DNA from: Candidatus Saccharimonadota bacterium
GTDB taxonomy: Bacteria > Patescibacteriota > Saccharimonadia > Saccharimonadales > UBA4665
Assembly (NCBI GenBank): GCA_002952755.1
Contig: CP025011.1
Coordinates: 210,001-242,000 of the forward strand
Length of the DNA: 32,000 nt
Direction of reading: 5' to 3'
The notes under the pieces were generated by a model. That model was given only the letters and a program-made list of their open reading frames with translations, was not told the DNA's origin and made no database searches. This document shows, piece after piece, positions 1,015 to 31,459 of this stretch. Within the stretch, counting starts at the first letter, position 1, and the number at the start of each line of letters is the position of its first letter. The position numbers and the translations under genes are program-made.

Positions 1015-2202
1015 CTACGCCATAGAAGGTGCCTGGGCCTCTTGGCGAGCCCTTACGCGTGCGAGTAGTATGGCCTGTACTTCGTCGGGCCGAATGGTAT
1101 GCTCCTCGGCTAAAGACTCATCATTCAGATCCCGGTAGCGGGAATCGACTCTATACCAACGCTGGCCAAAACGGTCATTACTCCCTCGAAGCCGTTCTGT
1201 ATATAGGCGTTCGTGCTGTACGATATCCGGGGTTTCTCCGTCGTCGACGTATACTATAACAGCATTACGCGATTCAGCGGTGCGTAGCAGTTGCGCAAGC
1301 ATAGGTAACTTCCCCCGCGTCCATACATCAAGAGTGCCTAGGAACTCAGTAACTGCTGTAATAGTTTCCGATTCCGGCGGTGTCACACCTTGCAGCAAGT
1401 AGTTGCGCAGGTTTTGTAGCCGTGAGTAGAGGGCTTGTTGGTCTGGGACGTCGAGGTTGAGGCTTGGGAAGTCGGGTTTTAGAATCGATAATATGTTGTA
1501 CGCTTCTTCGAGCGATGGATCGTGTTCGAGCGAATGTTCCGCGTCTACTTCATCATCCAAGCGGGTACTGAGCGCCAGCTCATGATCTACTAAGTGACCT
1601 CCGGCATCCGGCATGGTTCTTTCTATAGCTGCCGAAGCAAATAGTATGTTGCTTTTGGGCCGAGTCGAAAAGGGTACGACACTTAGGGTGCGGGAGCCTA
1701 GGACATTTGCCCATTGCAAATTAGCCCTCTCCCTCGCAACTTCTAATGCAAACGGAAGGCTCGGCCGCAGAATGACTAATTTCCTGGTGTCGTAATCTTC
1801 TGCAAGCGGCATGATAGAACCGTCAAAGTCGAATAACGCTTCAACATTAGATTCAGGATGGTCGTGAGCGGCCCGACTAACCAGTCGAGTTAGAATGTCG
1901 CTGAAGTAGTATTCACTTAATACCGATTCTGCCACCACTTTATCTACCTGTTGTTCGAGCCAGTCGCGAACTCCAGCGGGCGTCCCCCCATCCTTCAGAC
2001 GTTTTTCTACAAAGCTCTGTACAGGTCTAACAGGGATACCATCGTCTATGGTGGCCTGATTGACACGGTCGATAGAGGCGACCATGCTATCATCAATAGC
2101 CTTACCCAACCTAAGCTCTTTGAGGCGTTCTATAACCTCGTCCGTGTGATGGACTTCAGTTAGTGGCGACCTGTCTAGAACTGCCGTGCCGATAATTTCC
2201 AT
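1015..2202 (-). CDS. hypothetical acidic protein (~395 aa), no recognisable motif
   Basis: This is a long ORF (track 1015..2241). I prefer the internal ATG at 2202 (MEIIGTAV...) because TGtTATAGT lies 6 nt upstream of it and TTGCGT lies 17 nt further upstream. Confidence 0.6.
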   Translation of the reverse strand: MEIIGTAVLDRSPLTEVHHTDEVIERLKELRLGKAIDDSMVASIDRVNQATIDDGIPVRPVQSFVEKRLKDGGTPAGVRDWLEQQVDKVVAESVLSEYYFSDILTRLVSRAAHDHPESNVEALFDFDGSIMPLAEDYDTRKLVILRPSLPFALEVARERANLQWANVLGSRTLSVVPFSTRPKSNILFASAAIERTMPDAGGHLVDHELALSTRLDDEVDAEHSLEHDPSLEEAYNILSILKPDFPSLNLDVPDQQALYSRLQNLRNYLLQGVTPPESETITAVTEFLGTLDVWTRGKLPMLAQLLRTAESRNAVIVYVDDGETPDIVQHERLYTERLRGSNDRFGQRWYRVDSRYRDLNDESLAEEHTIRPDEVQAILLARVRARQEAQAPSMA

Positions 2203-2208
2203 CGAGCT

Positions 2209-2237
2209 ACTATAACACACTATTCTAGTTGACGCAA
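2209..2237 (-). promoter_or_regulatory. promoter with leaderless geometry for the 1015-2202 gene
   Basis: The minus strand reads TTGCGT (2232-2237), a 17-nt spacer, TGtTATAGT (2209-2217), agctcg, then ATG (2202). Confidence 0.5.
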
Positions 2238-2282
2238 CCATTAGCGTACATCTAGCGTGTCATATGTTAAAGCATACACCAC

Positions 2283-2733: not shown

Positions 2734-3597
2734 TTATAGAGCTTCTTGCTTTCTATGCCAAACCACAGTATGTAGGCCGCCAGTCGCCATTTGCGCAAAG
2801 AGTTCCTGAGCTTCATACAAGCTCTTTATGTCCCCTGGTTGAACCTTCGCCTCTCTTAACGCGATCTTTGTAAGGGTGGCTCCGGCTATTTCGCGTGCGT
2901 TGTAAAAGGCTCGGCTTCTTTCCGGGAGTGGGCCATATCTGCCACCACCCCTCCTATTAAGTTGGTCGCGTATACGCGTACCGAAAATGCGATTCGGGGC
3001 AACACCGGTGGCGGCCTCTAGGATGGCGCCAACGCGCACTGCTTGCCGGCCGGCCAGGATCTGAATACCGTGGTGGGGGTCGTCTCGGAGCTGGCCCAGA
3101 TCGAAGCAGTCGTTTTCAAGGGCGCCAATGACGTCGCCAAACGTATCTTTGGATTGGTCGTAGACTCTGACGATTTTATTAACCTCTTGTTCACTGTGAC
3201 CGCATCGATCAGCAATCATTGGTTTGCCGCGCCTAGAGCCTTGTAGGAGGGCATATTGTAGCGGCTCCGCCATTTTCGTCGCTTCGCCTTTGCCTGGTGC
3301 GGGTGCGAGACTCTCTCCTGCGCTGGTAATCCATCTAGCTGCTGTGCCGGGGTATCCAGCGCTAAAGACGGCAGAGGTATGAAAGCCGCTCCTGAATATG
3401 TCTGCTGCCGCCTGGGCTCGTTGATCGGAGCGTTCAGCAAGTCTATACGTAAAGGAAAGGTTGTTATACCCGCCATTTGGATCGTATTCGTCGCGCGGAA
3501 GGAAGGTTTCCTGAATGTATGACGAACCACCCGGGATAAACAATGTTAGGGAATGGATATCCTGAGGTGGGGAGGTGTTAGGGCCGAGGCGCAGCAT
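2734..3597 (-). CDS. hypothetical protein, possibly YdcF/DUF218-like
   Basis: The ORF spans 2734..3603 (GTG at 3603 or ATG at 3597). The loose pattern LFIPGGS ... SAVFSAGYPG ... DQSKDTFGDV ... HHGIQILAGRQAVRV resembles the DUF218 layout. This call is from memory and has not been profile-checked. Confidence 0.45.
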   Translation of the reverse strand: MLRLGPNTSPPQDIHSLTLFIPGGSSYIQETFLPRDEYDPNGGYNNLSFTYRLAERSDQRAQAAADIFRSGFHTSAVFSAGYPGTAARWITSAGESLAPAPGKGEATKMAEPLQYALLQGSRRGKPMIADRCGHSEQEVNKIVRVYDQSKDTFGDVIGALENDCFDLGQLRDDPHHGIQILAGRQAVRVGAILEAATGVAPNRIFGTRIRDQLNRRGGGRYGPLPERSRAFYNAREIAGATLTKIALREAKVQPGDIKSLYEAQELFAQMATGGLHTVVWHRKQEAL

Positions 3598-3638
3598 AAG
3601 CACCGTATTATGACGATGATGAGCTGGCTGAGCAAGAG

Positions 3639-19224: not shown

Positions 19225-19241
19225 GTATCTATAACTATATT

Positions 19242-19318
19242 TGGAGGGCCAGGAGGGGCTCGAACCCTCGACATTCTGCTTAAGAGGCAGACGCTCTAAC
19301 CAACTGAGCTACTGGCCC
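19242..19318 (-). tRNA. tRNA-Lys (anticodon CUU), CCA encoded
   Basis: The reverse complement reads GGGCCAG-TA-GCTC-AGTTGGTTA-GAGC-G-TCTGC-CTCTTAA-GCAGA-ATGTC-GAGGG-TTCGAGC-CCCTC-CTGGCCC-T-CCA. This is a complete 77-nt cloverleaf with anticodon loop CT-CTT-AA. Confidence 0.92.
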
Positions 19319-19350
19319 GTGCCGTTCCAACAAAGGATTACAACGAAGCT

Positions 19351-19379
19351 AATATACCAAAATACCCCTGTTATTGCAA
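19351..19379 (-). promoter_or_regulatory. promoter of tRNA-Lys
   Basis: The minus strand reads TTGCAA (19374-19379), a 17-nt spacer, then TGgTATATT (-10 at 19351-19356), about 32 nt upstream of the tRNA 5' end. Confidence 0.5.
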
Positions 19380-19468
19380 GCGTAAGGTGTGTCGCTCCGG
19401 TTCACGTGCGTTATGAGAAAGGCTCCTGTACAATGAAACTTAAGATAAGCAGTAGAAGAAAGGATTCT

Positions 19469-19945
19469 ATGTTTGCCACCATTTTTGCACAGTCATATAC
19501 GACGTATACCACTACAACGACCGCATCGTCGTCCAAGATAAGCTTAGTACTCGTCCTCGCGTACCTGTTTTTCTTGGTATGTATGTTGATTTCAATGTGG
19601 AAGGTATACACCAAGGCAGGTAAGCCGGGATGGGTGGCAATCGTACCTATCTACAACACCCTTGTGTTGCTCGAAATAGTGGGCCGACCCTGGTATTGGC
19701 TCTTGTGGCTTTTCATCCCGATCGTTAATATTTACTTCTTGGCTGTTGTGTGTAACGACCTAGCGAAGGCGTTTGGAAAGGGGATGGGAATGACAGTGCT
19801 GCTCTTCCTGCTGCCATTTATTGGCTACCCAATTCTCGGTTTTGGTCCTGCAGAGTACCATGGAGGTCCGGCGAACATGGGGTGGAATCCGCCGCAGACC
19901 CCGGCAAACCCTCCAGTACCTCCGGCCCCAACCACAGGTGTTTAG
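19469..19945 (+). CDS. DUF5684-like small membrane protein with Pro-rich tail
   Basis: MWKVYTKAGKPGWVAIVPIYNTLVLLEIVGRPWYW is the signature I associate with DUF5684. I chose ATG 19469 because AAAGGA lies 7 nt upstream and TACAAT sits at 19429-19434. The track ORF start at 19241 runs across the tRNA on the other strand. Confidence 0.6.
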   Translation: MFATIFAQSYTTYTTTTTASSSKISLVLVLAYLFFLVCMLISMWKVYTKAGKPGWVAIVPIYNTLVLLEIVGRPWYWLLWLFIPIVNIYFLAVVCNDLAKAFGKGMGMTVLLFLLPFIGYPILGFGPAEYHGGPANMGWNPPQTPANPPVPPAPTTGV

Positions 19946-20082
19946 TACCTATGTATGCAACTTTTTCGGAATAAACATCACAAGTTCGATCCTTTATGGC
20001 ATGTGCAGCTAGTGCTGCTGGTCGTGGTGCTGGTAGCAGCCAGAGCGATTAGCGTACTGTAGCCTCGAAGACGATTGTTTCT

Positions 20083-21891
20083 TTATTGGCCGATAAAACC
20101 GTAGGTGTAAGGGTCATATTCCTCGGTAGTTGGGGCGGGAGTGGGGTTGGGCTTGGGGGCTGCTGGCGTTGCTGGTTGTGCAGCCACTGGTTGAGTATTG
20201 GGATCTAACCCAAGGTCAAGTATCTGGTTGATAGAATGAATAAGTACTTCGCGCGGCCGTGCGCCATCCGCAGGTCCTACAATTCCCTGTTTTTCCATTT
20301 CCTCGATGAGCCGCGCAGCCCGGCCATAGCCGATGCGTAAGCGCCGCTGCAGGAGGCTGGTGGAAGCTTTGCCGCCCAGCACCACAACTCGAATCGCCTC
20401 TTTGTAAAGTGCCTCGTCGGCAGCTTGGCTGTTTGTGTTTGGCGTATTCCAGTTTTGCGGAATGAATGAGCTTGGGTCTACGGCGGGAGCTTCTTCGGTG
20501 GGCGATTGGGTAGTGAGGAAGGAAATACTCATTTCCCGCGAGGCATAGTCTGTGAGCCATTCCCGTCCGATTTTGCCCTCCATGAGTGTACGCAGGATGC
20601 GATCGGACGCCAATTGGTCGGCTAAGCGTTTGAGCACTTCGGGATCGGCGTGCTTGAGTTTCTGCATCTTTAAAGACAGAGCGGTTGGTTGATCTGACAA
20701 GGCTGGATTATACAGTTTCCAGACGGCAATATCATCGGCAGACCAACTGCTGACAATCTCGCAATATTCCCGGTCCTCATGGGTGTCGTCGCCAATGAGG
20801 AGCCCGTAAAAATCACGCCAGCTGAGCTGCAAACTCCTGGTAACAGCAAAGATGCCTACGGGTAATCTGGCTGAGGTGCTGCCGCTGTTTTGCCGGTAAA
20901 TAGCACTATCGGTGATTAGGCGGTTAATAAAGCGAATGATGGTGCGCGGATTGTATTGGCAGACGCCGCCTATAACAGAGGAAATTGGCGCCAGATCGCG
21001 GGCGGTGCGTTTATCGCCCAGGTCGGCAATGATGTGTTTGGTGAAGTCGGCGATGCGGTTGGTGTGGGGTGGAATGTCGAATGACAGCTGGATCATCTTG
21101 TCGAGATAGGCGCTGCCGTCATAATGAGTGATGCCATACTGTTTCTGATATTTGGACTGCAAGTATTCTTCGATGACCACGCGTGAGGCACCCAGAATAA
21201 AGATAAAGCCTGGCTGCGAGAGGACCAGCTTAATACCTTCCAATAAGCGTACGGCATTTTCGGGGAAGCAGCGGTCCAGATCATCAATAAGCACCATGAT
21301 GGTAATATTTCGCGGCACGGCATTGTTGCTGATGGAACGGAATGCATCAAAAATGTTCTCGTACGGATCATCGTGGGCATAACCGTACATGCGGGTCTTG
21401 CGAAGGTGTTTGAAGGTCTCTCTAGCGGCACCAAAGCCGATCTCTGCCTCAACGTTGGCAAAACTGCCGGGCAATCCAAGCTTGCCCTTGAGCTTGAAGG
21501 CCCCTACTAATGCCTCAAGCGCGTCAATCAAGGTCTTACCGGCGTGTCCGGTTCGCAGCAGTAGATCTTCCTGTGCCTTGAGGGCTTCGGTGATGCTCTT
21601 AATGAGCGGGACGATCGGGTACTCGACCTTTTCGAACATCCAGGCGTTAAACCAGACCGGCACGACGATATGGTCTTCGGTACCTATATTTTGGACGCGT
21701 TGTTCAACCATCTTCATGAGACTGGTTTTGCCCATGCCCCATTCGCCGAAGATACCTATAGTAAACGGGCCACGCGTGCCTTCGACGATGCGGGCGATGA
21801 CGTCAGCATAGCTGGAAAATCCGAGTGCATCGGTGCGCGTGTTATCGAGTTCGGCAATGGCTTGGTCGGGGATTAGGCGGATGGGCTGCAT
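20083..21891 (-). CDS. soluble KAP-family P-loop NTPase fused to a C-terminal FtsK-gamma winged-helix domain
   Basis: Walker A is GIFGEWGMGKTSLMK (21721-21747), followed by VWFNAWMFEK. Walker B is IMVLIDDLDRCFPENAV. Residues ~492-551 (20239-20418) read DEALYKEAIRVVVLGGKASTSLLQRRLRIGYGRAARLIEEMEKQGIVGPADGARPREVLI, which closely resembles the FtsK gamma domain. A Pro-rich tail follows. Confidence 0.85.
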   Translation of the reverse strand: MQPIRLIPDQAIAELDNTRTDALGFSSYADVIARIVEGTRGPFTIGIFGEWGMGKTSLMKMVEQRVQNIGTEDHIVVPVWFNAWMFEKVEYPIVPLIKSITEALKAQEDLLLRTGHAGKTLIDALEALVGAFKLKGKLGLPGSFANVEAEIGFGAARETFKHLRKTRMYGYAHDDPYENIFDAFRSISNNAVPRNITIMVLIDDLDRCFPENAVRLLEGIKLVLSQPGFIFILGASRVVIEEYLQSKYQKQYGITHYDGSAYLDKMIQLSFDIPPHTNRIADFTKHIIADLGDKRTARDLAPISSVIGGVCQYNPRTIIRFINRLITDSAIYRQNSGSTSARLPVGIFAVTRSLQLSWRDFYGLLIGDDTHEDREYCEIVSSWSADDIAVWKLYNPALSDQPTALSLKMQKLKHADPEVLKRLADQLASDRILRTLMEGKIGREWLTDYASREMSISFLTTQSPTEEAPAVDPSSFIPQNWNTPNTNSQAADEALYKEAIRVVVLGGKASTSLLQRRLRIGYGRAARLIEEMEKQGIVGPADGARPREVLIHSINQILDLGLDPNTQPVAAQPATPAAPKPNPTPAPTTEEYDPYTYGFIGQ

Positions 21892-21897
21892 AGTGCT

Positions 21898-21903
21898 ATT
21901 TTA
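21898..21903 (-). promoter_or_regulatory. -10 box, leaderless geometry
   Basis: The reverse complement reads TAAAAT, agcact, then ATG (21891). Confidence 0.4.
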
Positions 21904-21953
21904 CGCTATCTGTCGACCGTCGGCGACAGCTCAACCAGAAACTCGTACCAATC

Positions 21954-21962
21954 TGTTACAAT
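21954..21962 (+). promoter_or_regulatory. extended -10 box, leaderless geometry
   Basis: The sequence reads cTGtTACAAT, atcacca, then ATG (21970). Confidence 0.45.
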
Positions 21963-21969
21963 ATCACCA

Positions 21970-22779
21970 ATGAAAGTGCTGAATGGCCGAGATTTGGCAG
22001 GTTATATAAAGCTGCGCCAGCAGCAGCAGGTGCGCGCGCTGCGCCAATCTTTGGGTGTGCAACCAAAATTGGCTATTGTGCTGACTATCGAGCATCCGAC
22101 CATCAATGTATATATGCGCATGAAGAGGCGCTACGGCGCCGACATTGACATTGATGTCGACATCCACCGCGTCAAACAAGACGATGCACCAGCAGTGATT
22201 GCTCAGCTCAACAAAGATGTGAGCGTACACGGCGTCATCGTGCAGTTGCCGTTGGAGCGACCTGAAGAAACCGAGACGATTGTAAATTTAGTCGCCCCCG
22301 AAAAAGATGTTGATGCTTTGGGTGAGCACGCAGTGTTTGAGCCAGCCACGCCGTTAGCAATTTTGTGGCTGCTCGCCGGCTATAACGTAGATCTAAATGG
22401 CAAAAAAGTGTTGCTAGTTGGGCGCGGTAAGCTGGTGGGCCGGCCCCTGGAGCGCATGCTTGTAGCCTCTGGCGTCGATGTTTCTAGCGCCGACCGCTCT
22501 ACCAAAGATTTAAAGGCGGAAACGCTAGTCGCCGATATCATTATTACGGCTACTGGCAACCCGGGCCTGCTTTCTTCGGACATGATCAAGCAAGGTGCAG
22601 TAGTGGTGGATGCCGGGGTGGCCGGCGAGCAAGGAAAAACAGTGGGCGACCTAGCTCCTGATGTCTATGAACGGGACGATTTGACGATTACCCCCACCAA
22701 AGGTGGTGTGGGCCCGCTTACGGTGTGCGCTCTCTTCGAAAACGTCATTCGCGCCGCCCGGCAATCGTCCGGGCAGTAA
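21970..22779 (+). CDS. folD: bifunctional methylenetetrahydrofolate dehydrogenase/cyclohydrolase
   Basis: It has LNGRDLAGYIK ... GVIVQLPL ... TPLAILWLL ... LVGRGKLVGRPL ... TATGNPGLL ... GGVGPLTVCALFENV. Confidence 0.9.
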   Translation: MKVLNGRDLAGYIKLRQQQQVRALRQSLGVQPKLAIVLTIEHPTINVYMRMKRRYGADIDIDVDIHRVKQDDAPAVIAQLNKDVSVHGVIVQLPLERPEETETIVNLVAPEKDVDALGEHAVFEPATPLAILWLLAGYNVDLNGKKVLLVGRGKLVGRPLERMLVASGVDVSSADRSTKDLKAETLVADIIITATGNPGLLSSDMIKQGAVVVDAGVAGEQGKTVGDLAPDVYERDDLTITPTKGGVGPLTVCALFENVIRAARQSSGQ

Positions 22780-23042: not shown

Positions 23043-24020
23043 ATGTACCGAATGACCACCCAACTACTAACCGTTAGCCGCTTTGCAACTACCGCTGTAA
23101 CGACCGCCCTACTTTTGAGTGCCACGCCACCACTCTGTACGATTGTATCGGCCGCCGATATGCCCTATACCGATCACTCCAGCCAAGTCAGTTCCCGCGA
23201 GGTGGTCGATACACTTCGTCATACCTCAGGGATTTTGCAGGCTTCGGCTACAGCCAATATGGTTGATGATCGATCGGTAGTTACCGCAAACACCGCAGAA
23301 GATACGGTTGATATTCCCAAAGATGCCACACAGGGAGTTTCGGTCACGCCTAAAGACGGGCCAGACATGGGCATCAGCCTGCCAAACGCTGACCAAGCCG
23401 GCAGCGGACAGGAGGTTGCACCCGGCGTGATAGCTTACTCTTCTTCTGACGGTTCAGCCAATGCAGTGCAGGCTAATACCGATGGCAGTGTCAGAATGCT
23501 CACAGTGATAGATAACGCCAAAGCATCGCGAACGTATGACTACAAGATCACCGTTCCGGACGGCGGCCGTGTGGCACTTACATCCGACGGCGGGGCTGTT
23601 ATCCTGGACGTTGGCAATAATGTGCTAGCGCACGTGAATGCACCCTGGGCCAAAGATGCCCGCGGGAAGGCCGTTAAAACATGGTTCACTACTGACGGTG
23701 TTACGCTGACACAGCATGTCAAACATACTGTGCGTGGCATTGCGTATCCAGTTATAGCTGATCCATATTTCGATTGGCATTGGTATGGTGTAAATATTTA
23801 TATCGAACAGCCTGTCGTTAATCGAATGCTCGCTTTAATGTCCTCTGGCAGTGGAGCTATGGGCTTGGGGGCGGCAATTACGGGAGGTGCAGGCACACCT
23901 GCTGCTGCCGTTGGAGCTGCAGCGCTCGCGATTGGAAGTGGGGCGATGAGCTGGTGCTCGGCGCATGGGAACGGTATGTGGATTCATATGCATCTTGGTG
24001 TATCGTGGTGTAATGGATAA
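23043..24020 (+). CDS. secreted protein of unknown function with a C-terminal Gly/Ala-rich hydrophobic segment and a Cys pair
   Basis: AAGGAG lies 2 nt upstream of the ATG (unusually close spacing). The signal-like N-terminus reads FATTAVTTALLLSATPPLCTIVSAAD. The C-terminus reads SGSGAMGLGAAITGGAGTPAAAVGAAALAIGSGAMSWCSAHGNGMWIHMHLGVSWCNG. Confidence 0.6.
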   Translation: MYRMTTQLLTVSRFATTAVTTALLLSATPPLCTIVSAADMPYTDHSSQVSSREVVDTLRHTSGILQASATANMVDDRSVVTANTAEDTVDIPKDATQGVSVTPKDGPDMGISLPNADQAGSGQEVAPGVIAYSSSDGSANAVQANTDGSVRMLTVIDNAKASRTYDYKITVPDGGRVALTSDGGAVILDVGNNVLAHVNAPWAKDARGKAVKTWFTTDGVTLTQHVKHTVRGIAYPVIADPYFDWHWYGVNIYIEQPVVNRMLALMSSGSGAMGLGAAITGGAGTPAAAVGAAALAIGSGAMSWCSAHGNGMWIHMHLGVSWCNG

Positions 24021-24254: not shown

Positions 24255-24626
24255 CTACTTTTCGTGCAGTTTGAGCTTCACGAGTTCGGCAACTTGGCGT
24301 GGCGTCATGGCTGCCTTGAGAATGACGGCATCAACGCCCAAGGTGCGGACTTCCGGTGGAATCTCTTGTTCGCCCCGGTTGGTAAGGATAATCACTTTTA
24401 TGTTCTTGCCCCAAGCGGCTTTCCGAAGTTTGGCGAGCATTTCTTCACCGGTCATGATGGGCATCATCAGGTCGAGCAAAATAATATCGGGGCGCATTTC
24501 CTCAGCAAGCGCTAAGCCAAGTTTGCCATTTTCGGCCGTTTCGACGGTGTAGCCCTCGGCCTCAAATTTAATACGATACATTTGCGAGATGGCGGCGTCA
24601 TCTTCGACAATTGCAACTTTGCTCAT
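24255..24626 (-). CDS. stand-alone response-regulator receiver (CheY-like), no output domain
   Basis: It has VAIVEDD ... RPDIILLDLMMPIMTGEEM ... VIILTN ... KA and is 123 aa. A GAGGGGA Shine-Dalgarno sequence lies upstream. Confidence 0.85.
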   Translation of the reverse strand: MSKVAIVEDDAAISQMYRIKFEAEGYTVETAENGKLGLALAEEMRPDIILLDLMMPIMTGEEMLAKLRKAAWGKNIKVIILTNRGEQEIPPEVRTLGVDAVILKAAMTPRQVAELVKLKLHEK

Positions 24627-24685
24627 ATCCCCTCTTTCTGTTCGTAATAGTGTATCACTTTAGCTCACTGATAATTATTTTCTGT

Positions 24686-25072
24686 CTAGGCTGTGTTCAT
24701 GGCTAATACCTCTTGCACAATGGCGACGATCTGCGCCGGCGTATGATGCGCCTTGACGACATAGCGATCGACATGTAAAAAACGAAGCGCTGGCGGCGCT
24801 TCATCTTTACTGATGTTGGTGAGAATGATGACTCGAACGTCGCTGCCCCACCTTTTCGATCGTAGGTGGGCCAGCATTTCTGACCCTCCCATCACCGGCA
24901 TTAGTAAGTCCAGCAGGACGATATCCGGCCGGATGTTTTCGATGATGCGTAAACCCTCGATACCATTGCCGGCCGCGTAGGTTTCAAAACCTTCGCGCTC
25001 CAGTTTTAATTTATACAAAAACTGCAAGTCGTCATCATCTTCGACTACGACTGCTTTTATGGGTGATAGCAT
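24686..25072 (-). CDS. stand-alone response-regulator receiver (CheY-like), paralogue of the previous gene
   Basis: It has VVVEDDDD ... RPDIVLLDLLMPVMGGSEM ... VIILTN ... KA and is 128 aa. Confidence 0.85.
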   Translation of the reverse strand: MLSPIKAVVVEDDDDLQFLYKLKLEREGFETYAAGNGIEGLRIIENIRPDIVLLDLLMPVMGGSEMLAHLRSKRWGSDVRVIILTNISKDEAPPALRFLHVDRYVVKAHHTPAQIVAIVQEVLAMNTA

Positions 25073-25404: not shown

Positions 25405-26886
25405 ATGACTACAAATAATAATTTATTACCTCCCGACGGTATACCATCAATTGAAAGCGTCCAGGCAGACTTAGACCGCCGCGATAGAGACCAAGATCGT
25501 CGGCATCTTTTGGGTGCTGTGGGCCTCGGCATCGTTGCGGTTGGCCTCGTTGCGGGCGATGTTCTCGCCCAGCGTTACGGCATCGATGGACGCCTCAGCC
25601 ATACGCTGCCGTTTTTGGCGAAGGCGCAAGAGGCTATTAATAATGTAGATGATACTCTCGTGCCTGTAGGAGAGTACGGCATTCCAGCTGCCATTGGATT
25701 CGTCGCATCTGTAAAAGCACTCGCTCCTTTTAAGGGCGCTGCCCGTTTCGCCGATGGCTTTTCCGCTCGTGAGCCTAGCGCTGATGGCTCAGAGCGCAAG
25801 CGTCGTTTTGGTGGCATTCGTCGGAGAGTAGGTATGGCGATGGCTGGTGCCTCACTCGCTACTTTTACGGCGGGCATTGCTACTGAAGTGGGGCGTGGCC
25901 CGGATCGTCCCATAGACGCATTTGATGCACTTGTTCCTGGCAATAGCGTAGTGGTGCAATACAAGGAAGCGATGCCTATGGTGCAGAGCAGCTTGAACGT
26001 GGCCCTTGCGCAACAGATAAGGAAAGACGCAGCAAAGAAAAGCATCCCTACACATGCCTTCGGATTAAACTTAGGCACATACGAGTACAAAGGGCATGCT
26101 TACACTGATTTATTCGCTGGTGTAGAGACGAATGAGACGTCGCCTGTGCACTGGAATGGGGCAAACTGTAACGATGTTCCGGTAATTCTTGATAGCGCTT
26201 CTGGGGTTCCTAGGGGCGCTAAGCTATCGGTAAACGGCATTTCTGTCCAAGTGGTGGGGACTACTGAGCGTACATCGTCTATGAATCGTGTAAGCGGCAT
26301 CATAGACGAAAAGGCGCTGACGACATGCCTTGAGCAAGACTCCAATAAACCCCCGTACGGCATGACCATGGAAACCGATCCCGATACTGCACAGCAGCTT
26401 GTGGATGAAGCGCACGCCGAAACTGGCTTAACAGCTCCGGCGGCAGTTATTACGAAAGACCAAGAGAAGCAAAATAGTGAGCTTTTCTGGGATGCAAATG
26501 TGAAGCCAATCACCAGCGTGCTGTCGTTCGCAGCTATTGGTCTTGCCGGGATGGCTATGGCCAGCGCCATGGGCAGCCGCTTGCTGCGTAACCGGCGTGA
26601 GCTGGGTGCCCGTTTGGCCGCAGGGGTCTCAGTGAATACATTACGTCTTGCGGAAATCGTACGAGCTACAAAAGACGGAGTGGTTGCCGGCGTAGGTGGC
26701 GCTATAGTGGGCATACCATTGGCGATTATCCCAAATGCCATCCAGCAAGGTTTTGATGCGGGTGCAGGCGTCAGGGAAGCTGCCGTAGGTATGGCCGTAG
26801 GCCTAGCAGGCTCGGTGGGCGGCGCTGCATTTAAGCTCAGGAGACTAAGAGAAGTTGCTAATCCTGAGGAAACAACGAGGATATAA
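25405..26886 (+). CDS. ABC transporter permease, FtsX/MacB type (one N-terminal TM, large extracytoplasmic domain, C-terminal 3-TM FtsX domain)
   Basis: TM1 is LLGAVGLGIVAVGLVAGDVLA. A soluble region of about 300 aa follows. The FtsX-like region reads RRELGARLAAGVSVNTLRLAEIVRATKDGVVAGVGGAIVGIPLA. Confidence 0.7.
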   Translation: MTTNNNLLPPDGIPSIESVQADLDRRDRDQDRRHLLGAVGLGIVAVGLVAGDVLAQRYGIDGRLSHTLPFLAKAQEAINNVDDTLVPVGEYGIPAAIGFVASVKALAPFKGAARFADGFSAREPSADGSERKRRFGGIRRRVGMAMAGASLATFTAGIATEVGRGPDRPIDAFDALVPGNSVVVQYKEAMPMVQSSLNVALAQQIRKDAAKKSIPTHAFGLNLGTYEYKGHAYTDLFAGVETNETSPVHWNGANCNDVPVILDSASGVPRGAKLSVNGISVQVVGTTERTSSMNRVSGIIDEKALTTCLEQDSNKPPYGMTMETDPDTAQQLVDEAHAETGLTAPAAVITKDQEKQNSELFWDANVKPITSVLSFAAIGLAGMAMASAMGSRLLRNRRELGARLAAGVSVNTLRLAEIVRATKDGVVAGVGGAIVGIPLAIIPNAIQQGFDAGAGVREAAVGMAVGLAGSVGGAAFKLRRLREVANPEETTRI

Positions 26887-27822: not shown

Positions 27823-29214
27823 ATGAGCCTTACAGCTGACAGACAGACAGGGCATACCCTTGGGGGCGACATATCGCCTTTGCTACCTTTCGGGGTACTC
27901 CCTAATGAAAGTACTATCCTTGCCGAGGATCAGGTAGATGATGTAGCGGGTCTTGAGCCCTTTCCGCTCAATACGATTACGGCCGAGATTCCTATCGACC
28001 CCGATACACTAAACATTCCCGAGGATTTGCGACCACGCAGTATCGTACGGGTAGAGATGAAAGATCCCCAGGTCGAGGCGCTAGACCCAGATGACGTTGC
28101 TGCCGTGAGCGAGTGGGTACATAGTTTATCCACATATGTGAGGAGGCGCAAGGATAAAGGTGTCTACACACGCTTGCCTGGTTCCGCAGGTGGTACTTAT
28201 CTCGACGCAAACGGCCAGCATATAAACGGCCGGGCTAAAAAATATTGGGGCGATCAGGAGACTCGCGAAAGAGTTATTGCGGATATCGGCCCTGGAGCTG
28301 AAGCCTGGCTTGGTACGCTGCCAACTGGTCGGGCGCTTGAGATCGTCGAAGATATTTCACACGTACATGAGGTGCAAGACGATAAAGGTCGACACCTAGG
28401 CACTATGGATGAGATTGGTCGTTTAGTGATTACTGCCGCACCGGCTGCTCGTGGTATTCGTGCGCGCTATACCGATGAGGCCTATACCTTTGTAAATTTG
28501 GCAGAAGGATATGGTGGCACACTAGAAGGTAAGCGTATCGCTAGCCATGGATCAGGTTCGGCGCCAGGCCCAATGAAAGGTGCCCAGGTTATCCGAAGAA
28601 AGAATCCTGATGCTAGGGACCCTCATCTTTGGCATTATGATATTAACCCGCGAGCTATAGATGCCACTAGGGAATTGGCGCGAGGGGATATGGCTTTCGA
28701 AGGCCCGATAACGCAACGAGTGATGAATCTTCTTAATCCGCTCAAGATGGCAGTGGAAGGGTTGAAGTTACGATTGACAGGTAAGCGTCCGCATATCAGT
28801 GAATCCGAAGGCTTTTGGGAGTACATTGACCGCGATTTGCTACAAGCCATATGGAGTTCCAAGGGTGTGAAGGTACCGGAAAAACCAGAGGTTCGTTTCC
28901 TAAAGAGAGTGTACCGCGATGCCAAAGATGCAATTATGTTCAGCCAGATGCTGCCTGATGGGCCAGATCCAGAGTTCCTCGATGCCATAGGCTGGGGACA
29001 TGTAGTGTTGCGTGATGTGCCGACGGTACTACGGGCTATAAAAGAGGCTGGCATTCCACTTAGCCAGGTTGACGTACGAATTGTGGGGGACGGCTTCTGC
29101 GCTCGGTATATCGTAGATAAGCGTAGTGCCCCAAGTCGCCGTGAACGAGTGATACAGCGTGTAAAGCGCACCCTGGCACTCGGTAGTCTTGCCACTGCTT
29201 CTCAGAATACCTAG
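27823..29214 (+). CDS. hypothetical 463-aa protein; weak Rossmann/methyltransferase-like motif pair
   Basis: This is a long ORF with protein-like composition. ASHGSGSAPGP ... LWHYDINPRAIDATRELA faintly resembles SAM-MTase motif I and post-I. This has not been verified. Confidence 0.55.
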   Translation: MSLTADRQTGHTLGGDISPLLPFGVLPNESTILAEDQVDDVAGLEPFPLNTITAEIPIDPDTLNIPEDLRPRSIVRVEMKDPQVEALDPDDVAAVSEWVHSLSTYVRRRKDKGVYTRLPGSAGGTYLDANGQHINGRAKKYWGDQETRERVIADIGPGAEAWLGTLPTGRALEIVEDISHVHEVQDDKGRHLGTMDEIGRLVITAAPAARGIRARYTDEAYTFVNLAEGYGGTLEGKRIASHGSGSAPGPMKGAQVIRRKNPDARDPHLWHYDINPRAIDATRELARGDMAFEGPITQRVMNLLNPLKMAVEGLKLRLTGKRPHISESEGFWEYIDRDLLQAIWSSKGVKVPEKPEVRFLKRVYRDAKDAIMFSQMLPDGPDPEFLDAIGWGHVVLRDVPTVLRAIKEAGIPLSQVDVRIVGDGFCARYIVDKRSAPSRRERVIQRVKRTLALGSLATASQNT

Positions 29215-29266: not shown

Positions 29267-31459
29267 ATGACGCTAAGAATCGCATTACTCGTCATCGTGG
29301 GGCTATTCAATATTGTCCTCGCACTTATGGTTTTGGCGCGCGATCATCGAAAGCTCGTGAATGCTGCTTTTTTCGTGCTAGCCCTTAGTTGTGCGGCCTG
29401 GGTGTTTGGTATAGTCGGTTTTCTGACGGTGAATACCACACAATCTGCACTAGATTGGGCAAAGTTTTATTACGCCGCCCCTGTCCTATTGGTCGCATCT
29501 TCTATTGTTGTTGCGGACTTATTTCCTATCGGCAATGTAATTCACAAAAAGAAGATGGCCTTTCTCATAATGGCCTTAATCAGTGTGACAGTACCCCTTT
29601 TATTCGTGCCCGATTTTGTGACTGCCGGTATAGCTTATCGGAGTTGGGGCAAGGAAATCTTACTTAATAAGCCAGACTATTTATTGTATTCAGCCTATAT
29701 CGTTTTTGGATTCTGCTGGATGCTGACAATACTCGCCGGCAAGATGAAGAAAGAGCGGGGCATAAGTCGCGTTCAGGCCCAAATATTTTTTTACGGAACC
29801 ATGGGATCTGCGCTTTTTGGCACACTCTTCAATCTATTTTTGCCCTGGTTCGGCAACTATCGCCTTATTTGGGTAGGGCCACTGGCTACTAGTATATATT
29901 TGTCCACGACCCTTTATAGCATCGTAAAGCATAAACTTTTCGATATTCGCCTTATTATCGCTCGCTCCATTGGCTATATTTTGTCGATAGTAGCGCTCGG
30001 CACCCTGTTCGGCGCCAGTGCTTTTGTTATTGTTACTTTGGTTCTAAATGGGCAGGTTGCTTCAGTCTCAGAGCGGGTAGTTTCGGCCTCTTTGGCTGTT
30101 GCGTTGGCGATAATCTTCCGTCCGGTAAAGCGCTTCTTTGATCGCATCACGAATAAACTTTTTTATAGGGATGCATATGACACTCAGGTACTTATAGACA
30201 GCCTTAATCACATTTTGGTGGCGACAATCGAACTTGATACTCTTTTGTACGACACCTCAAAACTTCTCCAGGACACGCTTAAAGCTCAATATTGTATCTT
30301 TGCGCTATTCCCATTAACTAAGCAGCGCAAACAGGTTATTGGCACGTCCAAACAATTCGAGGATAGTGAGCTACTAAGAATCGCCCGGCTTGTGCCACGA
30401 GTGGCTCAAACCAAGGTTATTCTTACGGATAGTCTGGATACTATTCAAGACAAGCGGCTCTATATGCTGTTACAGTCGAACGATATTGCTATGCTTGGCA
30501 GTATTGGCACTAATATTAAGCAGGCCCACGAGATTTTAGGATATGTATTCCTCGGTCCTAAGAAAAGCGGTAATCCATACAGTAGTCAGGATCAAAAAGT
30601 TTTGGACGTTGTTGTAAATGAGCTGGTCATTGCTATTCAGAACGCTTTGCGCTTTCAGGAAATTGAGCGGTTTAACCTCACTCTCCAACAAAAGATCGAC
30701 GACGCTACCCGTAAGCTGCGCCACACCAATGACCGTTTAAGGGTCCTTGATCAAACTAAAGACGACTTCATTAGCATGGCTAGCCATCAGCTGCGCACCC
30801 CACTCACATCGGTGAAGGGCTATGTAAGTATGGTGCTCGATGGGGATGCCGGCAAAATTACCAGCCTCCAGCGTAAGCTGCTCAACCAGTCGTTTATTAG
30901 CTCGCAGCGGATGGTGTACTTGATTTCTGACCTCCTCAATGTTTCAAGATTGCGTACGGGTAAGTTTATTATTGAGGCGGTACCAACTAACCTCGCTCGG
31001 GTAGTCCAAGAGGAAATTGAGCAGCTGGTCGAGGCGGCGAAAAGCCGCGACCTGGAACTTACCTACCATAAGCCAGAGCATTTCCCGACATACATGCTGG
31101 ACGAGACCAAGCTACGCCAGGTAATCATGAACTTCATCGACAACGCCATGTACTACACTCCCAGTGGTGGGCATATTTCTATCACCATTGCCGATAAGCC
31201 TAAAACCATAGAATTTACCGTAACCGATGACGGTATTGGTGTGCCTACTCACGAGCAGCACCATCTCTTCACAAAATTTTACCGTGCGCCGAATGCCAAA
31301 CGGGCTCGGCCGGATGGTACCGGCTTAGGCTTATTTATGGCAAAAAAGGTGATTATCGCCCAAGGCGGCGCGATTATTTTCAAGAGCAGGGAAGATCACG
31401 GCAGCACCTTTGGCTTCACGTTTGCCAAAGACAAGCTGCAGCTGATAGAAACGAAATAA
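29267..31459 (+). CDS. sensor histidine kinase (multi-TM N-terminal domain, GAF-like linker, HisKA, HATPase_c)
   Basis: The H-box is ISMASHQLRTPLTSVKGY, the N-box is MNFIDNAMYYTP, G1 is DDGIGV and G2 is GTGLGLFMAKK. The first ~290 aa contain about 7 hydrophobic segments. AGGGGG lies upstream of the ATG. Confidence 0.9.
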   Translation: MTLRIALLVIVGLFNIVLALMVLARDHRKLVNAAFFVLALSCAAWVFGIVGFLTVNTTQSALDWAKFYYAAPVLLVASSIVVADLFPIGNVIHKKKMAFLIMALISVTVPLLFVPDFVTAGIAYRSWGKEILLNKPDYLLYSAYIVFGFCWMLTILAGKMKKERGISRVQAQIFFYGTMGSALFGTLFNLFLPWFGNYRLIWVGPLATSIYLSTTLYSIVKHKLFDIRLIIARSIGYILSIVALGTLFGASAFVIVTLVLNGQVASVSERVVSASLAVALAIIFRPVKRFFDRITNKLFYRDAYDTQVLIDSLNHILVATIELDTLLYDTSKLLQDTLKAQYCIFALFPLTKQRKQVIGTSKQFEDSELLRIARLVPRVAQTKVILTDSLDTIQDKRLYMLLQSNDIAMLGSIGTNIKQAHEILGYVFLGPKKSGNPYSSQDQKVLDVVVNELVIAIQNALRFQEIERFNLTLQQKIDDATRKLRHTNDRLRVLDQTKDDFISMASHQLRTPLTSVKGYVSMVLDGDAGKITSLQRKLLNQSFISSQRMVYLISDLLNVSRLRTGKFIIEAVPTNLARVVQEEIEQLVEAAKSRDLELTYHKPEHFPTYMLDETKLRQVIMNFIDNAMYYTPSGGHISITIADKPKTIEFTVTDDGIGVPTHEQHHLFTKFYRAPNAKRARPDGTGLGLFMAKKVIIAQGGAIIFKSREDHGSTFGFTFAKDKLQLIETK

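What the first reader, a model, noticed from the sequence alone, without database searches (positions are those of the whole stretch)
20083..21891. Soluble KAP P-loop NTPase carrying an FtsK-gamma DNA-reading head: an architecture I cannot assign to a described system
One uninterrupted 602-aa ORF combines two modules. The N-terminal half has KAP-family hallmarks: GIFGEWGMGKTSLMK, VWFNAWMFEK and VLIDDLDRCFPENAV. I see no hydrophobic insertion between Walker A and Walker B, unlike the classical membrane-inserted KAP NTPases. Residues ~492-551 (20239-20418) closely resemble the FtsK gamma winged helix (SLLQRRLRIGYGRAARLIEEMEKQGIV), the module that reads KOPS octamers and activates XerD. The FtsK translocase motor itself is absent. 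A Pro-rich tail ending EEYDPYTYGFIGQ follows. The gene is a solitary transcription unit, convergent with the DUF5684-like gene and divergent from folD, and sits beside tRNA-Lys. Comparative genomics has grouped KAP NTPases with NTP-dependent conflict and STAND-like switches. A sequence-reading dsDNA head on one suggests a DNA-sensing or DNA-tethered NTPase switch. Two readings are a single-gene defence sensor or a chromosome-resolution/segregation accessory in a reduced genome. Both are hypotheses.
Basis: partly seen in the sequence, partly recalled or inferred. Interest (0 to 1): 0.75.

Follow-up and report, generated by a model that had tools for sequence, protein, structure and literature searches.

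The report
Defence-type KAP ATPase with FtsK head
This is a real, rare stand-alone gene, inserted between two housekeeping genes of a small-genome bacterium, that joins a defence-type KAP ATPase switch to the DNA-reading "gamma" head normally found only on the chromosome pump FtsK; it is most likely a single-gene anti-invader protein, not part of normal chromosome segregation.

Summary
ORF 20083-21891(-) encodes 602 aa with a KAP_NTPase domain (E 6e-32) and an FtsK_gamma domain (E 1e-27). It has no transmembrane segment and no FtsK motor.

It belongs to a large family of soluble, stand-alone KAP NTPases. These share a ~460-aa core and swap the C-terminal module: TIR, CHAT, pentapeptide, IF2_N, SWIB, CSD, pYEATS.

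The gamma version is very rare. It forms one 50%-identity cluster among 1.84 billion representatives and is absent from 185,579 GTDB species genomes. It is probably confined to Saccharimonadales.

A clade member (P0012) carries a whole FtsK alpha/motor/gamma module with degenerate Walker motifs, which fits the described "HerA/FtsK capture" theme.

In 41 syntenic relatives the gene is absent, and DUF5684 abuts folD in 10 of them. In this window it is therefore a ~2 kb single-gene insertion.

Clade members sit at different loci. Four of nine are in defence or toxin-antitoxin islands (Gabija, DUF4297-HerA, a PD-Lambda-2_B-like gene, TA clusters).

The gamma head is as conserved as the NTPase and keeps the KOPS-reading residues.

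Best reading: a single-gene conflict NTPase whose output or targeting module is a captured DNA-reading head. The mechanism is inferred, not shown. It is a new variant of a known kind, of moderate interest.

The parts
20083..21891 (-). KAP-gamma gene (602 aa plus stop codon)
   Evidence: ORF listing. The same gene call is found on independent contigs. Pfam finds both domains.
20917..21819 (-). KAP-family P-loop NTPase domain (residues 25-325)
   Evidence: Pfam PF07693, E 6e-32. The AF2 model has pLDDT above 90 except for the insert at 139-175. Foldseek's best matches are RdrA rings and Orc/Cdc6.
21721..21747 (-). Walker A motif GEWGMGKTS (residues 49-57)
   Evidence: G49, W51, G52, G54, K55, T56 and S57 are invariant in the 56-sequence family alignment.
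21271..21294 (-). Walker B motif VLIDDLDR (residues 200-207)
   Evidence: D203, D204, L205, D206 and R207 are invariant in the family alignment.
20506..20916 (-). All-helical domain of the conserved core (residues 326-462), including the NPR motif (314-316) region and W445/L446/R452
   Evidence: It is conserved across the whole family. Its pLDDT is above 90. Mean identity within the clade is 54%.
20425..20505 (-). Disordered linker (residues 463-489)
   Evidence: pLDDT is below 50 for residues 468-487. Mean identity within the clade is 12%. In P0012 the FtsK alpha and motor domains occupy this position.
20233..20424 (-). FtsK gamma winged-helix head (residues 490-553)
   Evidence: Pfam PF09397, E 1e-27. 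PDB 2ve8/2ve9/2j5p match at E 3e-11. The model shows three helices plus a wing with pLDDT 76-91 per 10-residue block. Mean identity within the clade is 61%.
20293..20313 (-). Recognition-helix residues R527, E530, E533, equivalent to E. coli FtsK R1300, E1303, E1306
   Evidence: These residues are needed for KOPS recognition in E. coli (PMC2680272). In the clade they are invariant, E or D, and invariant.
20086..20232 (-). Disordered Pro-rich tail ending in an acidic/aromatic motif (EEYDPYTYGFIGQ)
   Evidence: pLDDT is below 50 from residue 567. Only P0001 shares a full counterpart (…NDYYFYPPIGQ) and P0013 has a short aromatic end.
19946..21953 (.). Inserted segment relative to syntenic relatives (~2.0 kb, holding only this gene)
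   Evidence: None of 41 related loci has the gene. In 10 of them DUF5684 lies directly upstream of folD on the same strand. No target-site duplication or terminal inverted repeat was found.
21954..21962 (+). folD -10-like element TGTTACAAT, part of the conserved backbone
   Evidence: The element (TGTTACAAT, or TGATACAAT/TGATATAAT in some) is kept just upstream of folD in the window and in the empty loci.
19469..19945 (+). DUF5684 membrane-protein gene (left flank of the insertion)
   Evidence: Pfam PF18936, E 2e-27. Gene call.
21970..22779 (+). folD (right flank of the insertion)
   Evidence: Pfam THF_DHG_CYH and THF_DHG_CYH_C.
19242..19318 (-). tRNA-Lys(CTT), part of the conserved backbone and not the insertion site
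   Evidence: ARAGORN. The same tRNA lies upstream of DUF5684 in 7 of 7 relatives that lack the gene.

Best explanation
The gene encodes a stand-alone, soluble KAP-family NTPase of the conflict (anti-invader) type. Its conserved ~460-aa core (P-loop domain plus helical domain) is the NTP-driven switch and oligomerisation unit. This core is shared by a large family whose members differ only in the module hung on the C-terminus by a flexible linker: TIR, CHAT, pentapeptide repeats, IF2_N, SWIB, CSD, pYEATS. In one rare clade, probably confined to Saccharimonadales, that module is the DNA-reading gamma winged helix captured from cellular FtsK. The capture either went through, or ran alongside, a form that carries a whole motor-dead FtsK C-terminal half (P0012).

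Inferred mechanism: on a trigger sensed by the core, nucleotide-dependent assembly (ring-like, as in RdrA or Orc/Cdc6) brings several gamma heads together. FtsK needs several gamma heads to read a KOPS octamer. The clustered heads then bind double-stranded DNA at KOPS-like motifs, or bind XerD. This would either tether the NTPase to DNA or block DNA transactions such as FtsK loading, Xer recombination, segregation or invader DNA processing.

Shown: the domains, the intact motifs, family membership, rarity, the insertion polymorphism and the defence-island neighbours. Inferred: oligomerisation, DNA binding, the trigger and the outcome.
For: Domains and intact catalytic and DNA-reading motifs.

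All sisters share the layout of a core at 1-~440 with a C-terminal module starting at ~440-470, including the death effectors TIR and CHAT.

No recurrent neighbour gene was found in 28 sister loci or among the clade's contexts, so the gene is stand-alone.

P0012 is the KAP core plus FtsK alpha, motor and gamma, with Walker A K->R and Walker B D->N. It nests in the clade (93% and 100% bootstrap) and lies among PemK, PIN and ParE genes.

The literature reports FtsK ATPase modules, often inactive, as effectors of NTP-dependent conflict systems, KAP displacing STAND NTPases, 'HerA/FtsK capture' as a defence theme, and KAP NTPases with diverse C-terminal regions that protect against phage.

The gene is an accessory. 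It is absent from 185,579 species genomes. It forms one 50% cluster in 1.84 billion representatives. It is absent from 41 syntenic loci, with DUF5684 abutting folD in 10 of them.

Clade members lie next to full-length GajA+GajB, DUF4297+HerA and a PD-Lambda-2_B-like gene.

The gamma head is under the same constraint as the NTPase (61% vs 65% identity; linker 12%).

The structural neighbours are the ring-forming RADAR ATPase RdrA and Orc/Cdc6.
Against: There is no experimental datum for this protein or for any family member with the same core.

The window's own neighbours are housekeeping genes, and 5 of 9 contexts are not defence islands.

No close relatives were found on phages, plasmids or viral contigs, and the insertion carries no mobility signature.

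A gamma head is not an obvious killing effector, so whether it is output, targeting device or sensor is open.

Matches to PADLOC and NCBIfam defence models cover only the generic NTPase part.

The defence-island tally rests on nine loci.
Confidence: 0.55

Rival explanations
1. It has the same conflict role but the opposite wiring. The gamma head, like the IF2_N, CSD, SWIB and pYEATS modules of sister proteins, is the sensor: an integrated copy of a housekeeping module. It would detect invader DNA, or invader proteins that target FtsK or Xer (for example Xer-exploiting elements). The NTPase core would itself be the output.
For: Many of the alternative C-terminal modules are small binding domains borrowed from essential housekeeping proteins rather than enzymes. 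Isolated gamma can engage XerD and activate XerCD/dif in trans (PMC2965235). The KOPS-reading residues are conserved.
Against: TIR and CHAT, which are clear effectors, occupy the same position on the same core. By positional homology the C-terminal slot is therefore an output slot. No effector activity is known for a KAP core on its own.
Confidence: 0.15
2. It is an NTP-gated DNA-binding regulator or nucleoid protein with no defence role. It would resemble STAND or Orc/Cdc6-type ATPases that carry a C-terminal winged helix, controlling transcription or replication of some target.
For: The layout of ATPase, helical domain and C-terminal winged helix parallels Orc1/Cdc6, which are among the best structural matches. 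The gamma head is a sequence-reading wHTH.
Against: No neighbouring gene or locus is conserved that could be a regulatory target. Distribution is sporadic. Sisters carry TIR and CHAT. Several clade members are adjacent to defence systems.
Confidence: 0.12
3. It is a housekeeping accessory of chromosome dimer resolution or segregation in a reduced genome. A soluble gamma carrier would activate XerD or mark KOPS in place of, or alongside, FtsK.
For: The gamma head is intact and conserved. Isolated gamma can activate XerCD/dif. The window neighbours are housekeeping genes. The host is probably a small-genome Saccharimonadales bacterium.
Against: The gene is absent from all 41 syntenic relatives and from every GTDB species representative. 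It lies at different loci in different genomes. The lineage has canonical FtsK with its own gamma domain (P0152). Its family is of the conflict type.
Confidence: 0.07
4. It is a functionless remnant of a KAP-FtsK fusion that lost its motor, or an assembly or frameshift artefact.
For: P0012 shows a longer form with a degenerate motor. P0012 itself is a singleton on one contig.
Against: Fourteen orthologous clusters keep both domains intact at 53-69% identity. The NTPase and gamma head are well conserved while the linker has diverged. The identical protein is found on 4 contigs from independent samples.
Confidence: 0.03

Closest known systems
Soluble KAP NTPases with swapped C-terminal modules (KAP-TIR, KAP-CHAT, KAP-pentapeptide, KAP-IF2_N, KAP-SWIB, KAP-CSD, KAP-pYEATS). 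These are uncharacterised and annotated only as 'P-loop NTPase fold protein'.
   Same: They share the same ~460-aa core at 35-44% identity, the same invariant motifs, a module at the same C-terminal position, and stand-alone genes.
   Different: Here the module is the FtsK gamma winged helix. The clade is far rarer (one 50% cluster against ~1,300 for the family at E<=1e-30) and taxonomically narrow.
FtsK/SpoIIIE gamma domain (KOPS/SRS reader and XerD activator)
   Same: It matches Pfam FtsK_gamma well above the cut-off, has the winged-helix fold, and keeps the R/E/E recognition residues. It is 61-77% identical to the nearest gamma domains in the database, including a Saccharibacteria FtsK.
   Different: There is no 4TM domain, no alpha domain and no motor. 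The head hangs on a KAP NTPase, so it cannot direct a translocase.
'HerA/FtsK capture' conflict systems and FtsK-ATPase effectors of NTP-dependent conflict systems (Aravind lab; PMC10853773, PMC7159879, PMC8195603)
   Same: A module of cellular FtsK origin is joined to a conflict-type NTPase. P0012 keeps FtsK alpha, motor and gamma with inactivating Walker changes, matching the reported 'predicted inactive' FtsK effectors.
   Different: Those systems capture the ATPase ring, usually alongside nucleases and in multi-gene operons. Here only the 60-aa reading head is kept, in a single gene. A KAP-FtsK or KAP-gamma fusion is not mentioned in the passages retrieved from those papers.
[quoted passage not shown]
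   Same: They have a KAP NTPase domain. Function depends on Walker B and on the C-terminal region in EF_KAP. They play a single-polypeptide or defence role.
   Different: EF_KAP has transmembrane helices and an unknown C-terminal region. Matches to QatA, PifA and PDC-S20 models cover only the first ~270-310 residues of profiles that are 450-720 long. There are no QatBCD partner genes.
RADAR RdrA
   Same: It is the best structural match (Foldseek E 1e-6) and a ring-forming defence ATPase.
   Different: TM-score is only 0.38 and sequence identity 11-13%. There is no RdrB adenosine deaminase partner, and RdrA is about 230 residues longer.

Membership tests
KAP family P-loop NTPase (Pfam PF07693) | Profile match above the gathering threshold, with Walker A and Walker B present | tested here: met
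   111.5 bits against a cut-off of 20. GEWGMGKTS and LIDDLDR are invariant in the family.
KAP family P-loop NTPase (classical form) | Transmembrane helices inserted between Walker A and Walker B (a feature recalled from Aravind et al. 2004; that paper is not held in the library) | tested here: not met
   The highest hydropathy in the insert is 0.84, and the model shows soluble helices. Soluble KAP proteins such as QatA are known, so this does not exclude family membership.
FtsK_gamma domain (Pfam PF09397) | Profile match above threshold and a winged-helix fold | tested here: met
   96 bits against a cut-off of 30.6. PDB 2ve8 and 2j5p match. The model shows H489-506, H511-518, H522-534 and a strand at 547-549.
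FtsK_gamma domain | KOPS-recognition residues (E. coli R1300, E1303, E1306) | tested here: met
   R527, E530 and E533 are respectively invariant, E or D, and invariant in the clade.
FtsK_gamma domain | Binds KOPS-like DNA and activates XerD | not testable with these tools
   This needs EMSA or SELEX and Xer recombination assays.
FtsK/SpoIIIE DNA translocase | FtsK alpha domain and a RecA-like motor (PF17854, PF01580) | tested here: not met
   Pfam gives no hit in the window protein. Both are present only in the relative P0012.
Qat system (QatA) | Full-length QatA equivalog score and QatBCD neighbour genes | tested here: not met
   NF041923 scores 125.8 bits against a cut-off of 600, over residues 17-275 only. 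The neighbours are folD and DUF5684.
PifA / PADLOC PDC-S20 | Full-length match to the model | tested here: not met
   Matches cover profile positions ~10-273 of 464 (PDC-S20) and 11-257 of 720 (PifA). The same is true for sister proteins.
RADAR (RdrA/RdrB) | RdrA-like ATPase with an adjacent RdrB deaminase | tested here: not met
   The resemblance is structural only (TM 0.38). There is no partner gene.
HerA/FtsK capture conflict systems | An FtsK/HerA-derived module joined to conflict-system components | tested here: inconclusive
   The window protein keeps only gamma. Its clade-mate P0012 has alpha, motor and gamma. The published definition concerns the ATPase domain.
Anti-phage defence gene (operational definition) | Enrichment next to known defence systems; accessory distribution | tested here: met
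   Four of nine contexts are next to Gabija, DUF4297-HerA, a PD-Lambda-2_B-like gene or TA clusters. There is a presence/absence polymorphism. The sample is small.
Anti-phage defence gene | Protection in a challenge assay | not testable with these tools
   This requires experiment.

The most novel reading that the evidence does not exclude
The protein uses the chromosome-polarity code itself as part of immunity. Nucleotide-driven assembly would display several gamma heads, which could act in one of two ways. They could read KOPS-like octamers as a self versus non-self or DNA-presence cue. Alternatively they could seize KOPS and XerD to stall FtsK loading and dimer resolution, or drive Xer recombination against Xer-exploiting elements. 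Either would be a non-enzymatic, segregation-targeting abortive or exclusion mechanism not yet described for any defence system. It would have evolved by trimming a captured, motor-dead FtsK down to its reading head.
Probability: 0.15. Interest if true: 0.8.

Novelty: new variant of a known kind. Interest (0 to 1): 0.5.

Why it matters
Functional evidence that KAP NTPases act in phage defence is recent, and the targets of their variable C-terminal regions are unknown. Here the C-terminal module is one of the best-understood sequence-reading heads in bacteria, with known recognition residues, a known class of DNA motif and a known protein partner (XerD). This makes the family unusually testable: DNA motif, partner and blind mutants can all be predicted in advance. 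The case also shows a possible trimming series, from a whole motor-dead FtsK half to the gamma head alone. It documents a defence-type accessory gene in Saccharibacteria, whose small genomes carry few such systems. It also points to a large uncharacterised family of stand-alone KAP-TIR, KAP-CHAT and KAP-pentapeptide proteins (about 1,300 clusters at 50% identity) that current defence catalogues hit only partially.

Tried and rejected
Membership in QatA, PifA or PDC-S20 was rejected. Matches are partial and well below the curated cut-off, and there are no partner genes.

A transmembrane insertion was rejected.

A frameshift or assembly artefact was rejected for the window gene. For the singleton P0012 it cannot be fully excluded. 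It is unlikely, because the junction falls exactly at the FtsK alpha start and the motor has degenerate Walker motifs.

A mobile-element origin was sought and not found. Viral contigs, phage records and plasmid records hold no close relatives, only KAP proteins at 20-39% identity and unrelated gamma domains. The window has no integrase or transposase. The insertion has no target-site duplication or terminal inverted repeats.

No dif-like site lies at the boundaries. The nine loose matches all have 2 mismatches, and none is at a boundary.

tRNA-Lys as the integration site was rejected, because the tRNA is part of the conserved backbone.

A conserved partner gene was sought and not found. The small downstream genes of P0007 and P0011 are unrelated. 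Twenty-eight sister loci share no neighbour gene family across more than two loci.

Promoter and terminator scans gave nothing above the shuffled expectation.

Naming the window's own organism failed. All window proteins are singleton clusters without names, and the names of folD relatives were truncated. Assignment to Saccharimonadales is direct only for P0001's contig.

Literature searches for KAP with FtsK or FtsK gamma found nothing relevant. One search was swamped by unrelated 'kap' words. Aravind et al. 2004 is not held in the library.

A gamma-only homology search was dominated by short contig-end fragments and gave no clean gamma phylogeny.
Full report
**Observation**

The ORF at 20083-21891 (minus strand) is uninterrupted and encodes 602 residues.
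- Pfam places a KAP_NTPase domain at residues 25-325 (111.5 bits, cut-off 20) and an FtsK_gamma domain at 492-551 (96 bits, cut-off 30.6). There is no FtsK alpha or motor hit.
- The gamma region aligns to the solved gamma domains of P. aeruginosa and E. coli FtsK.
- An AlphaFold2 model built on a 56-sequence alignment is confident (mean pLDDT 83, pTM 0.73). It shows a P-loop domain, an all-helical domain, a disordered linker (468-487), a three-helix-plus-wing head (489-559) and a disordered tail.
- No segment is hydrophobic enough for a membrane helix. The best window, 222-240, is a core strand.
- Walker A and Walker B are invariant in the family.
- The fusion is not an artefact. The identical protein lies on four contigs, including two independent sequencing runs. 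Fourteen further clusters share the architecture at 53-69% identity.

**What family it belongs to**

The homology search showed that the first ~460 residues are a conserved core shared at 35-44% identity with hundreds of proteins of similar length.
- Pfam scans of representatives show one layout throughout. The core occupies residues 1 to ~440, and a different module starts at ~440-470: TIR_2, CHAT, pentapeptide repeats, IF2_N, SWIB, CSD or pYEATS.
- An exhaustive profile search of 1.84 billion cluster representatives found 1,344 proteins at E<=1e-30. Only one cluster (P0007) had the full KAP+gamma architecture, plus P0012 and one fragment.
- A scan of one genome for each of 185,579 species found 50 family members, mainly Actinomycetota, Desulfobacterota, Chloroflexota and Cyanobacteria. 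None exceeded 46% identity, and that was a short fragment; no full-length match exceeded 42%. The patterns used are invariant in the clade, so none of these is a KAP-gamma protein.
- In 28 sister loci no neighbouring gene family is shared by more than two loci, so the family is stand-alone.
- Defence-model libraries match only the generic NTPase part. QatA scores 126 bits against a cut-off of 600, and PifA and PDC-S20 match only the first ~270-310 profile positions. The protein is therefore not a member of those systems.
- The closest solved structures are the ring-forming RADAR ATPase RdrA, then Orc/Cdc6 and clamp loaders. TM-scores are low.

**The motor-bearing relative**

P0012 (979 aa) has the same core at 57% identity, followed by FtsK alpha, the FtsK motor and gamma.
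- The junction falls exactly where the FtsK C-terminal half normally begins.
- In the HMMER alignment to P. aeruginosa FtsK, the Walker A lysine is arginine (GSGRS) and the Walker B aspartate is asparagine (INE). This predicts a dead or altered motor.
- In a neighbour-joining tree of the core, the KAP-gamma proteins plus P0012 form one clade (93% bootstrap), and P0012 pairs with P0013 (100%).
- Either the alpha and motor domains were lost more than once, or P0012 regained them. The data do not decide.
- P0012 is a singleton. It lies among PemK, PIN, ParE and Phd-type toxin-antitoxin genes.
- Its motor also matches the FtsK-like modules of the defence proteins SspH and mad8.

**Host and accessory status**

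- The window comes from a 1.45-Mb contig.
- Ribosomal protein L33 on the contig of the closest orthologue (P0001) clusters at >=90% identity with proteins of Candidatus Saccharimonadales and Patescibacteria.
- The one organism-named hit among the listed nearest gamma matches is a Saccharibacteria FtsK, at 65% identity.
- Syntenic relatives of the window are single contigs of 0.8-1.2 Mb.
- The window's organism is therefore probably a Saccharimonadales bacterium. This is an inference.
- A scan for close folD relatives in metagenomes gave 80 loci, of which 41 have at least 2.5 kb upstream of folD (67-80% identity). None of the 41 encodes a KAP-gamma protein. In 10, DUF5684 lies directly upstream of folD on the same strand. 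The two response-regulator genes downstream are also conserved.
- tRNA-Lys(CTT) precedes DUF5684 in 7 of 7 loci checked.
- In the window, the gene is therefore a ~2-kb single-gene insertion into a conserved tRNA-Lys/DUF5684/folD backbone. The folD -10-like element is left in place. No target duplication, terminal repeat or dif-like site marks the insertion.

**Neighbourhoods of clade members**

The nine distinct contexts all differ.
- Five look like housekeeping or generic accessory regions: the window, P0001, P0002, P0003 and P0008.
- P0007 lies 111 bp from a divergent, full-length GajA+GajB (Gabija) pair.
- P0011 lies 12 bp downstream of a DUF4297+HerA pair.
- P0013 lies 7 bp downstream of an HTH-M78 gene that matches PD-Lambda-2_B.
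- P0012 lies in a toxin-antitoxin cluster.
- The small genes downstream of P0007 and P0011 are unrelated, so there is no conserved partner.
- No close relatives occur on viral contigs, phages or plasmids.

**The gamma head**

- Within the clade, mean pairwise identity is 65% for the NTPase, 54% for the helical domain, 12% for the linker and 61% for gamma. Both ends are under constraint and the linker is a tether.
- The residues whose substitution makes E. coli FtsK KOPS-blind are R1300, E1303 and E1306 (PMC2680272). They correspond to R527, E530 and E533, which in the clade are invariant, E or D, and invariant.
- The residue two positions after the conserved glycine is G or A in the clade. The same residues (G or A) predominate among the closest gamma domains in the database. 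E. coli has N1296 at this position, by my own numbering.
- The head therefore looks like a normal, lineage-typical FtsK gamma, probably with that lineage's motif preference.
- Isolated gamma produced in trans can activate XerCD/dif (PMC2965235). A motor-less gamma is therefore not inert in principle.

**Interpretation**

Several lines point to a conflict or defence role rather than a chromosome-maintenance role:
- the positional equivalence with TIR and CHAT;
- the stand-alone genes;
- the rarity and the insertion polymorphism;
- the variable loci;
- the repeated adjacency to known defence systems.

Published comparative genomics gives direct precedents.
- FtsK ATPase domains, often predicted inactive, serve as effectors of NTP-dependent conflict systems, and KAP ATPases displace STAND NTPases (PMC7159879, PMC8195603).
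- 'HerA/FtsK capture' from cellular FtsK is a general defence theme (PMC10853773).
- KAP NTPases with diverse C-terminal regions protect against phage in a manner that depends on Walker B and on the C-terminal region (PMC13552941).

The most likely mechanism is as follows. The core is a nucleotide-driven switch that assembles on a trigger. Assembly clusters several gamma heads. The clustered heads bind DNA at KOPS-like motifs, or bind XerD. This tethers the complex or blocks DNA transactions. These steps are inferred. The trigger, the oligomeric state, DNA binding and the outcome are untested. Whether gamma is output, address label or sensor remains open, and the sensor or integrated-copy reading is the main rival. 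The housekeeping reading is unlikely, and the artefact reading is excluded.

**Novelty**

No paper in the library pairs KAP NTPases with FtsK or its gamma domain. The fusion is a new variant within a known kind: KAP-type conflict NTPases with swappable modules, and FtsK capture. It is interesting chiefly because the captured module has known recognition residues and partners. That makes the family's mechanism testable.

Noticed in passing
proteins P0135, P0158, P0195, P0201, P0246: Many short proteins (66-154 aa) consist of little more than an FtsK gamma domain. Several lie on long contigs (62-620 kb), so they are not contig-end fragments. They may be stand-alone gamma proteins or split ftsK genes.
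   Followed up: no
window 20086-20232 (residues 554-602); P0001 C-terminus: A Pro-rich spacer ends in an acidic/aromatic motif: EEYDPYTYGFIGQ here and NDYYFYPPIGQ in P0001. P0013 has a short aromatic end (YYEGIRQNY). The other orthologues lack it. It could be a docking peptide.
   Followed up: partly
L003 2448-5387 (P0012): This is the only KAP core plus FtsK alpha/motor/gamma fusion found. Its Walker A is GSGRS and its Walker B is INE. Its motor is only 44-45% identical to the nearest canonical FtsK (Lachnospiraceae). It sits among PemK, PIN, ParE and Phd-type genes.
   Followed up: partly
L160 5906-8686: P0013's KAP-gamma gene starts 7 bp after an HTH_3 plus M78-peptidase gene that matches PD-Lambda-2_B (99 bits). 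The two may form an operon with an ImmA/IrrE-like regulator. An EVE-domain gene lies nearby.
   Followed up: partly
L008 and L047 (Candidatus Hydrogenedentes chromosome OY782877.1, 3.60-3.65 Mb): Two members of the KAP core family lie within about 27 kb of each other on one chromosome. This suggests an island holding paralogous systems.
   Followed up: no
phage records H25-H30; BFVD hit A0A6G9L9G0: Gamma-like domains occur in Pseudomonas phages (51% identity; one annotated feature is 'DNA recombination-dependent growth factor'). One also occurs in a Bacillus phage 'gamma domain-containing small terminase subunit'. These are other cases of the reading head used outside FtsK.
   Followed up: no
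window 24255-25072 and 29267-31459: Two tandem single-domain response regulators lie downstream of folD and are conserved in most relatives. A HisKA_7TM histidine kinase lies 4 kb further on. The output of this signalling set is unknown.
   Followed up: no
window 21954-21962 and the equivalent positions in L082, L099, L104, L116: A -10-like element, TGTTACAAT or a close variant (TGATACAAT/TGATATAAT), lies about 8 bp upstream of the folD start codon in all loci aligned. It is probably the folD promoter.
   Followed up: partly
window 1015-2241, 2734-3603, 23043-24020, 25405-26886, 27823-29214: Five sizeable ORFs (289-493 aa) have no Pfam match. The 325-aa one has an N-terminal signal-like hydrophobic stretch and a Gly/Ala-rich C-terminus.
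   Followed up: no
window 19241-19945 (+): The mechanical ORF for DUF5684 starts at a TTG inside the tRNA-Lys gene on the opposite strand. The gene callers' start at 19469 (158 aa) is the plausible one.
   Followed up: yes
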